A stretch of DNA of 64,000 nucleotides. Source: Eledone cirrhosa. Taxonomy: Eukaryota. Below, in pieces: positions 3,896-53,919 of this stretch. A program made the translations under genes and the position numbers. Under the pieces are notes generated by a model. That model searched no databases. It was not told the DNA's origin and saw nothing but the letters and a program-made list of their open reading frames with translations. The stretch lies in assembly GCA_964016885.1 (NCBI GenBank), contig OZ024743.1, positions 278,008,001-278,072,000 on the forward strand, given 5' to 3'. Positions within the stretch are counted from its first letter, which is position 1, and each line of letters begins with the position of its first letter.

Positions 3896-3956
3896 TATTT
3901 TATCTGATGATAGCGTACCAAAATTTTGGTACCCTGGAAATATATATAATAGAATA
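3896..3956 (+). ncRNA. Hammerhead ribozyme (family C)
   Basis: tattttat CTGATGA tagcgtacca-aaatt-ttggtaccctg GAAA tatata TA atagaata. Confidence 0.8.
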
Positions 3957-21545: not shown

Positions 21546-21680
21546 CATCATTTTACGATTATTTCTGGGATGTATATGTGTGTTGGTATGTATATCATGT
21601 TTAAGATCTATGTAAACATTACAAATTATCAGAGAAAATATACATACCTTCACATATACATGCTGTCCTCAGAAGTGATG
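21546..21680 (-). ncRNA. Hammerhead with very long stem II (family H), canonical C3-G8 core
   Basis: catcactt CTGAGGA cagcatgtatatgtg...cacatatacatccca GAAA taatcg TA aaatgatg. Confidence 0.75.
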
Positions 21681-21842
21681 AGATTTGTTTAGTGAAAAAA
21701 AACAAAGAATTGATATAAAGAAACTGTTTAATAACATCAAATTTTCGTGTACACTTCAGTATCTTCTTGACTTGACCTCATTTTCTCGACCCCATTGTAT
21801 TCTTTTCATTCAAAGCATTAATCTGCACTCCTCCACTCCTAG

Positions 21843-22546
21843 ATTTAATTTCTACTACTGTTATTCTATCAACTTGACCTCTAAATCATTTCTATTGGTC
21901 AATTCAAAACCTGTTCCCAAACAGACTCTTTATATCAATTCTTTGTTTTTTTCAATAAACACATCTCATCATTTCCGAGGACGGCATGTATATGTGAAGG
22001 TATGTATATTTTCTCTGATAATTTGTAATATGTTTACATAGATCTTAAACATGATATACATACCAACACACATATACATCCCAGAAACCATCGTAAAATG
22101 ATGAATTTTTTTGATATAAGGAACTTATTCTTTGCTTTTATTTCATTGTTTTTATTAATTTAATTTAGACGTATATATGTATATATACTTGTGTGTGTGT
22201 GTGTGTGAGCAAGTATATATATAAATTAAATTAATAAAAACAATGAAATAAAAGCAAAGAACAAGTTCCTTATATCAAAAAAATTCATCATTTTACGATG
22301 GTTTCTGGGATGTATATTTGTGTTGGTATGTATATCATGTTTAAGATCTATGTAAAAATATTACAAATTATCAGAGAAAATATACATACCTTCACATATA
22401 CATGCCGTCCTCGGAAATGATGAGATGTGTTTATTGAAAAAAACAAAGAATTGATATAAAGAGTCTGTTTGGGAACAGGTTTTGAATTGACCAATAGAAA
22501 TGATTTAGAGGTCAAGTTGATAGAATAACAGTAGTAGAAATTAAAT
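21843..22546. repeat. ~325-bp-arm inverted repeat of family H with microsatellite spacer
   Basis: 21843-22167 is the near-perfect reverse complement of 22222-22546. Confidence 0.92.
21967..22103 (+). ncRNA. Family H hammerhead (CCGAGGA core variant)
   Basis: catcattt CCGAGGA ...long stem II... GAAA ccatcg TA aaatgatg; 8-bp stem I; mirror copy at 22286-22422 (-). Confidence 0.7.
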
Positions 22547-22750
22547 ATATATAGTATAAATAAAGATCCACACACTTCTAACCTAGCCCCTCATAGGACA
22601 CAGAAAAAATACGAAAAAGGAAATTGAACTTCGAAACTAATGGTCACACATACATGTTAAGTGTATGAAACCTTATTTAACATTAATAAGCTTTCTTGCA
22701 ATAGATTGGGCATTGCTTTCCTTGTCCTATTATCTACGGATATCCTACAT

Positions 22751-23376: not shown

Positions 23377-25122
23377 TTCTTCTGGTTTTATAATTTAACA
23401 AATTTTTACCAATAGAGAGAGAGTCGGTTTCTAACATAGACACAAGACTTTCTCATTGGAATTTACACATCAACTAGGTAGATAGGTATGCATGTGTAGA
23501 TATGGATGTTATTGTATGTGTGGATGTGGATGTTTTGAGTTGTATGTGTGAATGTGTATATACTTTGTATCTGTACATATGTATATGCAGTTATTAGATG
23601 CAACATTTTTGGAATGTTTTACATATTTTTAAGTTCCATTAATGGATTGTACTTGTAATTTCCTAACTAGTTGTGTTCTTTCTGTTCCTGTGAAGCCTAG
23701 CTTCTCAAGATTTGTATTGAGGCAGTTACTAACATATCCCAGTGCCCCTATAATCACAGGCATAAATCTGAAGGTGTAATAAGGGTGGAGTATCTGCAGA
23801 TTTCTCATCAGTTCTGCATAAATATTCTCCTTTTCGCTAATCTTTGATATTATATTGGCATCTGCTGAGCAGCTAATTTCCACTACTGTGCATGCTTTCT
23901 TCTCCCTGTCCCATATCATAAGATCTGGTCTGTTATGCCTGCATTTTATTGGGGTTTTTACTGGAACATTCCCCCAGTACTCTTTCATATTATGTACATG
24001 GATGTCTTCCACATTGCTGTAGCTTTTAATGTGTTTATTATCGGGGTTATCATTTTTAAGAACTGCATTGTACAGTGTTTTGGCCACTACATCAGTCCTC
24101 ATTGGTAGATAGTATCGTGATGACATCTTTGGACAGCTGCTGATGACATGGGTGATATTCGCGATGTTAGTTCTGCAGAGTCTGCACTTGTTATCACATC
24201 TAGGCGTTTTGCCTGCATCCATATCTCGTTTGTGAATCAGGTATTTCGTGTTAATCTCCTGTTCTTGGATTGCAAAAGCGTATCCTTCCCAACTCTCATG
24301 ATCTTATCTGTTTCATGCAGATAGACTTGTTCGAGAGACGGGCTCCTACACTTTGAGGTTCGTAGATGTTGTGGGAGAGATATGATGCGACGTGCAAATT
24401 CTGTCTGGATTGATGTTAGGCCTCTGCCTCCATGCTTACGTTTCAAGTAAAGGCGGTCTATGTCTGTTGATGTGGAATTTTCCGGTGTTGTTTAGTATTT
24501 TTCGTGTTCCAACATCAACTACTCGGATTTCGTCTATCGTCCAATTGAGTATTCCAAACGTTGGTGTTAGGACAGGCACAGCAAACACATTGGGAGCCAC
24601 TGATTTGTTTTGCGCAGAGAGTTCCGATGACCAAATCTTTCTTAATCGGGTGTAGTATTCCCTGGTTACGCGGTCCTTATTACAGATACCATTATAGGAT
24701 ATGTTCTCATCTATCCCCAGGTATCTGTAGCAGTCCTCATCTGATATCGGTGAAACGGTTAGGCCATTGATGACAATGTTGCTAGATGTGGTTGTTTTTT
24801 TCCCCCGCTTTACAGTCATGTATGAGCATTTATCTTGGCCAAACTCCATTCCTATATACTTTGAGAAAGTTGTAACCAGGTCAACATTTTTCTTCATCCC
24901 ATCCGTGTTCTTGGCATAAAGTTTCAGATCATCCACAAATAAATTATGGGTTAAGTTCGTATTTCCGTCCTCCTGTGAGCCAATGATCTATCCATCACAT
25001 TTCTTGAGCAGAAAGGACAAGGGGTTTAATGACAAGATGAATAATATCCAAGGGAGACTGTCCCCCTGAAATATACCCCTGCGATAATTTATTATATCAG
25101 TGAATATAGAGTCCTCCCTCTT
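23377..25122 (-). mobile_element. 5'-truncated R4/Dong-clade non-LTR retrotransposon (RT + CCHC + restriction-like endonuclease), frameshifted
   Basis: RGIFQGDS and DDLKLY RT motifs; CRLC..H....C knuckle; RPDL..E..EK endonuclease motif. Confidence 0.9.
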
Positions 25123-30202: not shown

Positions 30203-30267
30203 TATTTTGTCTGATGAAGGCATACCATAATTTAACTTGGTATCCTTGAAATATGTATAATGAAATA
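30203..30267 (+). ncRNA. Hammerhead ribozyme (family C)
   Basis: tattttgt CTGATGA aggcatacca-taatttaact-tggtatcctt GAAA tatgta TA atgaaata. Confidence 0.82.
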
Positions 30268-39671: not shown

Positions 39672-40987
<1,316 letters not shown>

Positions 40988-45329: not shown

Positions 45330-45650
45330 TTATATGCATTTAAAAAAAGAAAAAGTCGTTTTCAAACGATGGTTACAGTATAGAGAACGTTCAATTTTGC
45401 TGTTCAAAAGTTTGTTTACCGACGTTAAAATGCAGTATATCTCTAAATTGCATAACTTGCAGAATCGATGATTTTGCTGATATGCAGGCGCAGCTGTAAT
45501 AATTTGCCAATCAAGGGAGAACGCTTGATTGTTCCTCCGAAGCTGCCAGGCTTTATCGGCGAGGGTTGTTACGGAGCGCATTTTCTCGTGCCTGATCGAA
45601 GATCGATGTTGGTATAGGCGAGCCTTGAAAGAAGTTGCGGTACAATATAT
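45330..45650 (-). pseudogene. C-terminal GIY-YIG endonuclease of a Penelope-like retroelement (5'-truncated)
   Basis: FKARLYQH..S...T.L...W.L....W.II....Y....CKLCNLE..I....LN..E...CNH pattern. Confidence 0.8.
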
Positions 45651-46118
45651 ATATATTGTAAGGTTTTTGATATGAAATCTTGTGTCGAAACAAATATTGT
45701 TATACTTAGGGAACACACACCAAATATTATACACACACGCAAACGCATGCGCAGTTACAGAGACAAGAAGAAATATATTAATTAATTAAAATAAAAATGG
45801 CGTAGACATTACAATACAATAGGAGGAAACATAATAGTACCAATGATGATGTTGCAGATGTGCAACAAGAAAACTTTGATAGACTATATATATATATATA
45901 TATATTTATATCTGTATTTTTAACCGGTGGTCAATCAATGGCAAACATTTATTGCAAAATAAATTAACTATGGAGATATAAAAGATACAGAAGCGAAAAC
46001 CAACCAAATAGTGAGTGTGTTCTGTTGTTATTTCTGGCAATTTTATAACAATATGACCCTCCCCTAGTATAACAATATATATATATATATAACAATATAT
46101 ATATATGTATATATATAT

Positions 46119-53327: not shown

Positions 53328-53390
<63 letters not shown>

Positions 53391-53467
53391 CTATATATAT
53401 ATATATATATATAAATATATAAGTTAAAACAATGAAATAAAAAATCAAGTCATTAGAAATATACTTC

Positions 53468-53607
53468 ACTGCTTTACGATCGTTTCTAGGTGATGATAAT
53501 ACATCGTAACTATACGTCGTTATCGATCTATTTAAGGTTAGTTACAAAATATCAGATAAGGAAAATATTTACTTACATGCATATCACCAGCTGTTGTCAA
53601 AAGCAAT
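53468..53607 (-). ncRNA. Family H-related hammerhead with U3-A8 core
   Basis: attgctt TTGACAA cagctggtgat...atcaccta GAAA cgatcg TA aagcagt. Confidence 0.7.
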
Positions 53608-53919
53608 AAACGTATATGTATATATATGTATATACACACACATGTACATGTATCAGCACATGCACATGTAAACCTATATATATATATATATGCATATAAA
53701 TATGTATTCATACAAATGTATATTTGTAAGGAATAGTTGTGTTGGTACAAATATCTATGAGCATAGTCACAGACATGCACGCGCACACGAGTTTATAGGG
53801 AATGTTTCTTTGAACTGACAAAAGAATATTTGACAAAAATATATTTCAGCACTAATACACACAGACGGGCATGCATCAGACACACATGCGTTAGACACAC
53901 ATGATATATATATATATAT

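What the first reader, a model, noticed from the sequence alone, without database searches (positions are those of the whole stretch)
53468..53607. Catalytic-core covariation C3-G8 to U3-A8 within one long-stem-II hammerhead family
Seen in sequence: this locus shares flanks and stem-II blocks with family H (aaaacaatgaaataaaa, ttacaaa.tatcaga). Its core is TTGACAA where 21546-21680 has CTGAGGA, and stem I changes in a compensated way (attgctt/aagcagt versus catcattt/aaatgatg). Stem II spans ~100 nt. Established: positions 3 and 8 form a tertiary Watson-Crick pair, and U3-A8 is a rare functional variant. Inference: the double change reflects selection for cleavage, and standard CTGANGA searches would miss these ribozymes.
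Basis: partly seen in the sequence, partly recalled or inferred. Interest (0 to 1): 0.75.

Follow-up and report, generated by a model that had tools for sequence, protein, structure and literature searches.

The report
Penelope hammerhead with swapped core pair
This is one of about 900 copies of the end of a Penelope-type jumping gene whose hammerhead (predicted self-cutting) RNA motif carries a rare but already published swap of one core base pair, and whose very long arm holds a conserved splice-donor-like sequence that may let the element choose between being spliced and being cut.

Summary
A type I hammerhead lies on the minus strand at 53468-53607, with core UUGACAA, a 107-nt stem II and a palindromic stem III. 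U3-A8 is the family state, not decay: 878 of 893 exact genomic matches have it, 15 have one change and none is C3-G8. The copy is a 188-bp stump of a Hydra-clade Penelope-like element. It is not the same family as 21546 but a sister family, about 0.38 substitutions per site away in the ORF, so the covariation is one event. An unrelated repeat family in this window is also U3-A8 (6,020 matches). U3-A8 is published, including in Schistosoma Penelope elements (PMC4209133, PMC3088659). This scan had already noted U3-A8 and long-armed Hydra hammerheads on other DNA of this genome. The new lead is a donor-like GUAWGU/GUAGGU kept at +32 to +34 in all ten subfamily profiles and buried in stem II. A splice from it to an AG 34-41 nt before the ORF start would remove half the ribozyme and most upstream AUGs. 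No RNA run was listed and no spliced DNA copy was found, so splicing is untested.

The parts
53422..53609 (-). Solo pseudo-LTR stump (about 188 bp) of a Hydra-clade Penelope-like element, family 'U'; begins at stem I and ends at the family's usual 3' end in (TA)n
   Evidence: 97-98% identity to the top genomic copies; ends compared; linked to an RT/GIY-YIG ORF in longer copies
53601..53607 (-). Hammerhead stem I, 5' strand; its first A is the likely transcription start (many copies stop here)
   Evidence: start site inferred
53594..53600 (-). Catalytic core, positions 3-9, UUGACAA; U3 at 53600, C7 at 53596, A8 at 53595
   Evidence: 878 of 893 family matches are U3-A8
53487..53593 (-). Stem II, 107 nt, predicted unbranched rod; C-A mismatch at 10.1/11.1 and C-C mismatch at the fourth position
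   Evidence: folds (window copy -20.1 kcal/mol, z -1.5; sister-family copies down to z -8.0)
53570..53576 (-). Splice-donor-like GTAAGTA at +32, inside the 5' arm of stem II (predicted)
   Evidence: G+1, T+2, A+3, G+5, T+6 and A+7 are invariant in 10 of 10 subfamily profiles while the partner strand varies
53528..53554 (-). Conserved apical module: TGATA (53554-53550), hairpin, and TAG (53530-53528); either branch point and near acceptor, or an RNA docking motif
   Evidence: function not shown
53483..53486 (-). Core GAAA (G12-A15.1)
53475..53483 (-). Palindromic stem III (ACGATCGT) and A17; predicted cut after 53475; predicted to form only between two copies
   Evidence: two copies of the 12-nt segment pair at -12.0 kcal/mol, one copy alone at 0.0
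53468..53474 (-). Stem I, 3' strand
   Evidence: columns 13-15 of alignment A1 change on both sides between families
53332..53421 (.). (CA)n/(TA)n tract flanking the 3' end: the insertion target
   Evidence: (TA)n preference of the Hydra clade
21546..21680 (-). Comparison copy: sister family H with the canonical C3-G8 core; this copy is slightly decayed in stems I and III

Best explanation
The locus is a truncated end of a Hydra-clade Penelope-like retrotransposon whose type I hammerhead motif has U3-A8 in place of C3-G8 as a fixed family trait, a swap that likely keeps the core pair intact so that the RNA would still cut itself, probably as a dimer. Shown: the motif, its family-wide U3-A8 state, its position after the ORF end and about 290 nt (GAAA to ATG) before the ORF start in copies with a 5' pseudo-LTR, the Hydra-clade protein motifs, and a single C-G/U-A change between sister families. 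Inferred: (1) Transcription starts at the first base of stem I. (2) The element's RT starts inside the 5' leader and runs back to that start, leaving stumps like this one in (TA)n. (3) Two hammerheads pair through the ACGAUCGU palindrome and cut at GUA to release unit-length RNA. (4) The double change arose once in a master element, perhaps via C7pG8 decay to A8 followed by C3-to-U repair, and was then amplified. This lone copy has no partner hammerhead of its own family in the window and is probably an inactive passenger.
For: Core counts 878/893. Position 7 is free while 3 and 8 are fixed. Sister families are C3-G8 (93 of the first 100 of 11,750 superfamily matches are C3-G8 and 7 are U3-A8, with no mismatches). 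One change on the ORF tree, support 100/100. A second U3-A8 family is unrelated. Hydra motifs RWR, DKT, CxCx5C, CxxC and CxH are present and no CCHH is seen (against the definition). 13 of 26 genome-order copies stop within about 4 nt of the stem I start, read by eye. Published: U3-A8 is active in vitro and natural (PMC3088659 section 8); it occurs in Schistosoma PLEs; PLE hammerheads cut weakly as dimers; RT of a PLE starts internally (PMC11167929).
Against: No cleavage was measured. The window copy's whole-motif minimum-energy fold forms stem I but not the hammerhead stem II or III. Position 10.1-11.1 is a C-A mismatch rather than the usual G-C. PLE hammerheads have low in vitro activity. 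In one C3-G8 family 14 of the first 100 copies are C3-A8, and an earlier unchecked note reports a mismatch subfamily that spread (e1-10308940), so an intact pair may not be needed for spread. The tree alone does not fix the direction of change: the root is unresolved with either outgroup. Direction rests on C3-G8 being general (all Hydra rows in File S2).
Confidence: 0.78

Rival explanations
1. Splice-or-cut switch (an addition to the best explanation, not a replacement). The donor-like sequence in the 5' arm of stem II is a real 5' splice site. If U1 captures it, splicing to the AG 34-41 nt before the ORF start would remove the 3' half of the hammerhead and most upstream AUGs, giving a capped mRNA. 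If stem II folds first, the donor is buried and the RNA stays unspliced as the template that is copied into DNA.
For: Donor letters +1, +2, +3, +5, +6 and +7 are invariant in 10 of 10 subfamily profiles at +32 to +34. The partner strand drifts to G-U, and G+5 is unpaired in two profiles, while the basal helix changes freely. In 28 of 31 leaders (26 distinct loci; 3 skipped for a lost donor or acceptor) upstream ATGs fall from 5-12 to 0-1 with a 333-434 nt intron (one composite copy gives 575 nt). In H/J types a TRAY about 25 nt before the distal AG varies as TGAT, TGAC, TAAT or TAAC (one copy TGAA). Precedent: a 5'-UTR intron just after the start in D. virilis Penelope is needed for expression, and most transcripts are spliced while genomic copies keep it (PMC2377424). 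Chlamys-3 has a 398-bp intron across the pLTR-body boundary.
Against: No spliced genomic copy was found: 0 precise losses among the 31 short copies, against 11,750 full ones; the 3 hits for the long junction are unrelated sequences; no such joint appeared in 4 contig runs. PLEs normally keep introns, so this is weak. A donor-like hexamer occurs in 17% of shuffles of one stem II. The motif after the distal AG is conserved in more distant Hydra families, some of which lack the AG at that place, and it looks like one of two hairpin motifs, so its conservation has another explanation. All subfamilies share one ancestor.
Confidence: 0.3
2. The extra length of stem II is a 42-54 nt spliceosomal intron (donor to the near TACATAG) wholly inside the arm; splicing shortens the arm but leaves the ribozyme.
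For: Donor, TGATA and TAG occur in the right order in all profiles, with 21-35 nt from branch A to AG. The basal helix survives removal in most of the copies folded. D. virilis Penelope has a 75-nt intron.
Against: The donor-to-branch distance is only 18-24 nt in the cluster representatives. Introns this short are unusual for molluscs (10th percentile 113 and 198 nt in the two molluscs listed in the PMC13644364 supplement; no octopus row). It would remove only 0-2 upstream ATGs. TGATA and TAG-ATC are explained equally well as the two sides of a conserved helix and internal loop.
Confidence: 0.12
3. The long arm is a protein-docking or promoter module and its likeness to splice signals is chance; it has nothing to do with the 3-8 swap.
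For: A GAT/ATC helix, a 4x3 internal loop and a TGTA/TACA hairpin keep their sequence on both strands in the subfamily profiles. The fixed distance from the start would also suit a DNA promoter element. Earlier unchecked notes read other long arms this way (e1-10323020, e1-9903353).
Against: It does not explain why the one-sided invariant letters match the 5' splice-site pattern, with +4 free and G+5 kept even where unpaired (the pattern itself is recalled knowledge).
Confidence: 0.45
4. The hammerhead in these elements no longer needs to cut; U3-A8 drifted in and was amplified by a successful master.
For: Stumps read straight through the cut site and often stop at the inferred start. A mismatch at 10.1-11.1 is present. 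Naiads spread without canonical hammerheads. C3-A8 copies reach 14 of 100 in one family.
Against: The rest of the core, the stem III palindrome and stem I pairing are kept across about 0.38 substitutions per site. Two unrelated families reached the same Watson-Crick alternative. No family with a majority mismatch turned up among 93 sampled hits.
Confidence: 0.15
5. U3 and A8 are private decay mutations of this copy.
For: None found.
Against: 878 of 893 genomic matches are U3-A8 and none is C3-G8.
Confidence: 0.01

Closest known systems
Hydra clade of C-terminal EN+ Penelope-like elements (Craig et al. 2021, PMC8557442; includes Hydra-1_Obim)
   Same: Single RT plus C-terminal GIY-YIG ORF with the clade's motifs, (TA)n target, sense-strand type I hammerhead in the pseudo-LTR, inverted 5'-truncated partners and a tail.
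   Different: All Hydra-clade hammerhead rows in File S2 are C3-G8 with loop 2 of at most 10 nt. Here the core is U3-A8 and stem II spans about 99-116 nt. Hydra-1_Obim's listed hammerhead is a different sequence.
U3-A8 hammerheads of Schistosoma mansoni Cercyon PLEs (Cervera and de la Pena 2014, PMC4209133)
   Same: The same core covariation in a PLE pseudo-LTR, missed by the first descriptor and numerous (about 1,300 hits); type I and predicted to act as dimers.
   Different: Those are minimal motifs with a 7-8 bp helix II and little helix III. This one has a 107-nt stem II, an 8-nt palindrome and a C-A mismatch at 10.1-11.1; different PLE clade and host.
Natural U3-A8 core variants (Perreault et al. 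2011, PMC3088659)
   Same: The same compensatory pair, stated there to be active in vitro.
   Different: Reported there as several scattered examples; here it is the fixed state of two high-copy repeat families (893 and 6,020 exact matches).
5'-UTR intron of D. virilis Penelope (PMC2377424; PMC4209133) and of Chlamys-3_cRei (PMC8557442)
   Same: A splice donor shortly after an internal start in the pseudo-LTR, retained in genomic copies.
   Different: In D. virilis the intron ends at the 5' end of helix I, before the ribozyme. Here the predicted donor lies inside stem II, so splicing could delete the ribozyme. Splicing here is not shown.

Membership tests
Type I hammerhead ribozyme | Core (C/U)UGAN(G/A)A...GAAA...UH with a Watson-Crick 3-8 pair | tested here: met
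   UUGACAA, GAAA and UA at 53600-53594, 53486-53483, 53476-53475
Type I hammerhead ribozyme | Stem I open-ended and paired, with covariation | tested here: met
   7 pairs; three columns change on both sides across 11 sequences
Type I hammerhead ribozyme | Stem II closing the core, usually with G10.1-C11.1 | tested here: inconclusive
   A long helix is predicted, but 10.1-11.1 is C-A in all ten profiles. A C-A at this place is also seen in PLE-X1_cBra, and U-U in many Hydra rows
Type I hammerhead ribozyme | Stem III: stable, or short and palindromic for dimer cleavage | tested here: met
   8-nt palindrome; duplex -12.0 versus monomer 0.0 kcal/mol
Type I hammerhead ribozyme | Match to an Rfam hammerhead model | tested here: not met
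   No hammerhead match at E<=10 over 53400-53640, and no family at gathering score in the window; the window's canonical short hammerheads are missed too, so the test is insensitive
Type I hammerhead ribozyme | Site-specific self-cleavage | not testable with these tools
   Needs in vitro transcription
Hydra-clade Penelope-like element | Single ORF with RT followed by a C-terminal GIY-YIG endonuclease | tested here: met
   Fragments collinear and sense to the hammerhead in L061, L063, L064 (U) and L068-L070 (H); copies are broken, no intact ORF was read
Hydra-clade Penelope-like element | RWK motif, and DKG changed to DKT | tested here: met
   RWR (R for K) and DKT in the translations
Hydra-clade Penelope-like element | CxCX5C linker, no CCHH, CxxC and CxH around the conserved E and N | tested here: met
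   Seen in the L061 and L062 translations, against the definition
Hydra-clade Penelope-like element | Insertion in (TA)n, hammerhead in the pseudo-LTR | tested here: met
Hydra-clade Penelope-like element | Placement inside the Hydra clade on an RT tree with published elements | not tested
   Trees here used only this genome's copies
Naiad clade of PLEs | N-terminal endonuclease, CCHH, no canonical hammerhead | tested here: not met
   The endonuclease is C-terminal and has no CCHH
Non-LTR retrozyme | Non-coding 150-400 nt tandem unit with a type I hammerhead (size range recalled) | tested here: not met
   Family U continues into a coding PLE; the window copy is solitary
U2-type spliceosomal intron | GT donor consensus, conserved | tested here: met
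   10 of 10 subfamily profiles; a donor-like hexamer is kept in 134 of 150 copies
U2-type spliceosomal intron | Branch point and YAG acceptor at a workable distance | tested here: inconclusive
   Two candidates, each with another possible explanation
U2-type spliceosomal intron | Exon-exon junction in RNA | not testable with these tools
   No RNA holder listed

The most novel reading that the evidence does not exclude
These Hydra-clade elements have built a 5' splice site into stem II of their own hammerhead, so that one transcript becomes either a spliced, capped mRNA without a ribozyme or an unspliced, ribozyme-folded template. That would give a concrete, testable reason why Penelope-like elements keep their introns in every genomic copy and how a 5'-terminal self-cleaving RNA is compatible with translation.
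Probability: 0.3. Interest if true: 0.72.

Novelty: new variant of a known kind. Interest (0 to 1): 0.4.

Why it matters
The U3-A8 swap is published, so by itself it adds a clean natural test set rather than a new principle: two sister elements of the same architecture differ by C3-G8 versus U3-A8, and a second, unrelated U3-A8 family exists. About one in ten hammerhead hits in an even genome sample were U3-A8 (9 of 93), and 11,750 copies have a stem II near 100 nt, so standard descriptors undercount ribozymes in this genome. If the buried donor is used, it would link two open questions about Penelope-like elements, intron retention and hammerhead function (both called unclear in PMC8557442), through one structural switch that a single RNA-seq look-up could test.

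Tried and rejected
Rfam scans gave only low-complexity miRNA-like matches and no hammerhead. The repeat finder was swamped by microsatellites. My first descriptor missed the locus because it demanded a paired 10.1-11.1. Pfam found no family for the window's endonuclease fragment. I first suspected the Naiad or Nematis clade and rejected both on domain order and motifs. The look-up of sequencing runs: no RNA holder listed; this is no evidence on expression. Laying four contig runs of unrecorded kind on the locus and on a full leader showed no joint at either predicted splice. One contig of run X4 matched only 35 nt ending at the distal AG, which I treat as chance. A DNA search of the genome with the second U3-A8 family returned nothing, not even the window itself; a pattern search then found it. 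Three of the 31 short copies join CAT to AG 2 nt off the predicted splice and are read as microhomology deletions, not splicing. The one C3-A8 hit in the random sample belongs to a C3-G8-majority family. RNAalifold on the MAFFT alignment did not recover stem II because the arms are too diverged to align, so stem II was folded per subfamily instead. Rooting with two distant outgroups did not resolve the direction of change. Lunse et al. on dimeric PLE hammerheads (PMC5785218) is not held; it may describe 10.1-11.1 mismatches or U3-A8 cases that I could not see. Searches for a published intron or donor inside helix II of a PLE hammerhead listed none by title or abstract. Supplementary figures of PMC4209133 were not read.

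Full report
Observation. On the minus strand the locus reads stem I (53607-53601), core TTGACAA (53600-53594), a 107-nt stem II (53593-53487), GAAA, CGATCG, TA and stem I' (53474-53468). The comparison locus at 21546-21680 has CTGAGGA with a slightly decayed stem I and stem III. Rfam has no hammerhead match here. A relaxed type I descriptor on 790 kb sampled evenly from the four largest contigs gave 93 hits (78 C3-G8, 9 U3-A8, 6 other), and three shuffled controls gave no C3-G8 or U3-A8 hit. The motif class is therefore far above chance in this genome.

Is U3-A8 the family state? A 20-letter pattern with positions 3, 7 and 8 left open matches 893 times. Five matches are not U3, all C3-A8. Ten are not A8: 2 U3-G8, 5 U3-U8 and 3 U3-C8. 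So 878 of 893 are U3-A8 and none is C3-G8. This pattern does not count the U2 subfamily, which is also U3-A8 in the copies seen. Position 7 is A in 69, C in 28 and T in 3 of the first 100 listed. Family H gives 268 matches, of which 94 of the first 100 are C3-G8, 4 C3-A8, 1 U3-G8 and 1 C3-U8. A pattern for the whole long-stem superfamily matches 11,750 times, with 93 C3-G8 and 7 U3-A8 among the first 100. A second family in this window (39958-40037 and 40553-40632), unrelated in stems I-III, matches 6,020 times with 99 of the first 100 U3-A8. An older C3-G8 family shows decay as single changes (14 C3-A8, 3 U3-G8, 4 other, 0 U3-A8 of the first 100). Lists of 'first 100' were counted by eye. Copies are neutral after insertion, so these counts show the state of the masters and not selection on each copy.

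What carries it. The top genomic relatives are 97-98% identical to the locus. [quoted passage not shown] RWR and DKT lie near the N-terminus. These are the features given for the Hydra clade in PMC8557442 (section 11), as is insertion in (TA)n. In copies with a 5' pseudo-LTR the same hammerhead stands 263-301 nt (GAAA to ATG) before the ORF start in family U. U and H/J are sister groups: on 1,101 ORF columns from 27 rows the 10 U3-A8 rows and 15 C3-G8 rows are separated by branches of 0.18 and 0.20 substitutions per site, one change of state. The root is not resolved. C3-G8 is taken as ancestral because it is general in this genome and in all Hydra rows of File S2. The window copy is a 188-bp stump from stem I to the family's usual 3' end. 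In a genome-order sample 13 of 26 copies stop within about 4 nt of the first base of stem I, and 17 of 53 U copies lack the upstream element sequence. I read that base as the transcription start, an inference shared with earlier unchecked notes.

How it most likely works. The transcript starts at stem I, so every RNA begins with a hammerhead and meets a second one in the 3' repeat. Stem III is an 8-nt palindrome with no monomer fold but a -12.0 kcal/mol duplex, which fits the dimer model for PLE hammerheads (PMC4209133; review passages in PMC6765202). U3-A8 keeps the 3-8 Watson-Crick pair, and PMC3088659 (section 8) states that such ribozymes are active in vitro. I therefore put cleavage-compatible compensation at about 0.78. 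The caveats are the C-A mismatch at 10.1-11.1, the weak activity reported for PLE hammerheads, and the fact that this copy's own minimum-energy fold is not the hammerhead. A route through CpG decay at C7-G8 is plausible because C7 occurs in two U subfamilies, but it is not shown.

The long arm. I grouped 150 copies into ten subfamily profiles by simple rules. Each folds as one rod: basal helix, a second helix, then a GAT/ATC helix, a 4x3 internal loop and an apical TGTA/TACA hairpin. The basal helix differs in sequence between U, H/J and K. The 5' strand of the second helix is GTA(T/A/G)GTA in all ten, at +32 to +34 from the inferred start. Its partner drifts to G-U pairs, and G+5 is unpaired in two profiles. 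That one-sided pattern is what a 5' splice site would give (consensus recalled). There are two candidate acceptors. The near TAG gives 42-54 nt, short for a mollusc and explained equally well by the RNA module. A distal TAG 34-41 nt before the ATG gives 333-434 nt, removes the 3' half of the ribozyme and cuts upstream ATGs from 5-12 to 0-1 in 28 of 31 leaders. Against this: the motif following the distal AG persists in distant families, some without the AG; a donor-like hexamer arises in 17% of shuffles of one stem II; no spliced DNA copy exists among those searched; and no RNA run was listed. PLE 5'-UTR introns that are retained in DNA are known (PMC2377424 passages; PMC8557442 passages), but in D. 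virilis the intron ends before helix I. I give the splice-or-cut switch 0.3.

Comparison with what is known. Hydra-clade hammerheads are published, but only as short C3-G8 motifs. This scan has noted U3-A8 and long-armed Hydra hammerheads elsewhere in this genome; the short summaries I saw do not mention a splice donor. The genome is called octopus-like in those notes; I did not test the species. Papers seen: PMC4209133, parts 1-2 of 4; PMC8557442, passages, section 11 and supplement parts 1-2; PMC3088659, passages and section 8; PMC2377424, PMC6765202 and PMC7151607, passages; PMC11167929, part 1 of 4; PMC13644364, part 1 of 3 and two supplement rows; bioRxiv 10.64898/2026.07.22.740005, part 1 of 5. 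PMC5785218 is not held.

Verdict. The feature is real and correctly read, and it is a family-level trait. It is a known core variant in a known element clade, combined with an unusually long stem II. It is a new variant of a known kind, interest 0.4. The part worth following up is the conserved, buried donor-like site.

Noticed in passing
window 39958-40037 and 40553-40632 (+): Two copies, 595 nt apart, of an unrelated U3-A8 hammerhead (UUGAUAA, 59-nt stem II, GUC site). The family has 6,020 exact matches, often in about 591-nt tandem arrays, so it looks like a retrozyme.
   Followed up: partly
window 21840-22549: 336-nt, 98% inverted repeat made of two family-H pseudo-LTRs; both arms carry the same U4-to-C core change (CCGAGGA).
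   Followed up: partly
window 45330-45785 (-) and 44484-44440 (-): C-terminal endonuclease fragment of another Hydra-like element, followed about 850 nt later by a C3-G8 hammerhead with a 26-nt stem II.
   Followed up: partly
window 3904-3948 (+), 3422-3391 (-), 25891-25843 (-), 30031-29983 (-), 30211-30259 (+): Further short C3-G8 type I hammerheads of other families; none reaches an Rfam gathering score.
   Followed up: no
window 23629-24987 (-): Fragments of a non-LTR reverse transcriptase (Pfam RVT_1, E 1.5e-5, below the curated cut-off).
   Followed up: no
stem II base in all ten subfamily profiles (window 53593/53487 and 53590/53490): A C-A mismatch at 10.1-11.1 and a C-C mismatch at the fourth position are kept while neighbouring pairs change.
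   Followed up: partly
   Followed up: partly
G000 C1:126844247-126857651, C1:183737167-183757216, C1:420382466-420396306: Head-to-tail runs of 3-4 ORF starts at 6.5-6.9 kb spacing, which suggests young tandem arrays of a sister family.
   Followed up: no
L064 1-3085, L065 5065-6390, L068 3033-3830: Long ORFs that look like Helitron, hAT-type and mariner transposase fragments (labels recalled, not tested) next to the PLE copies.
   Followed up: no
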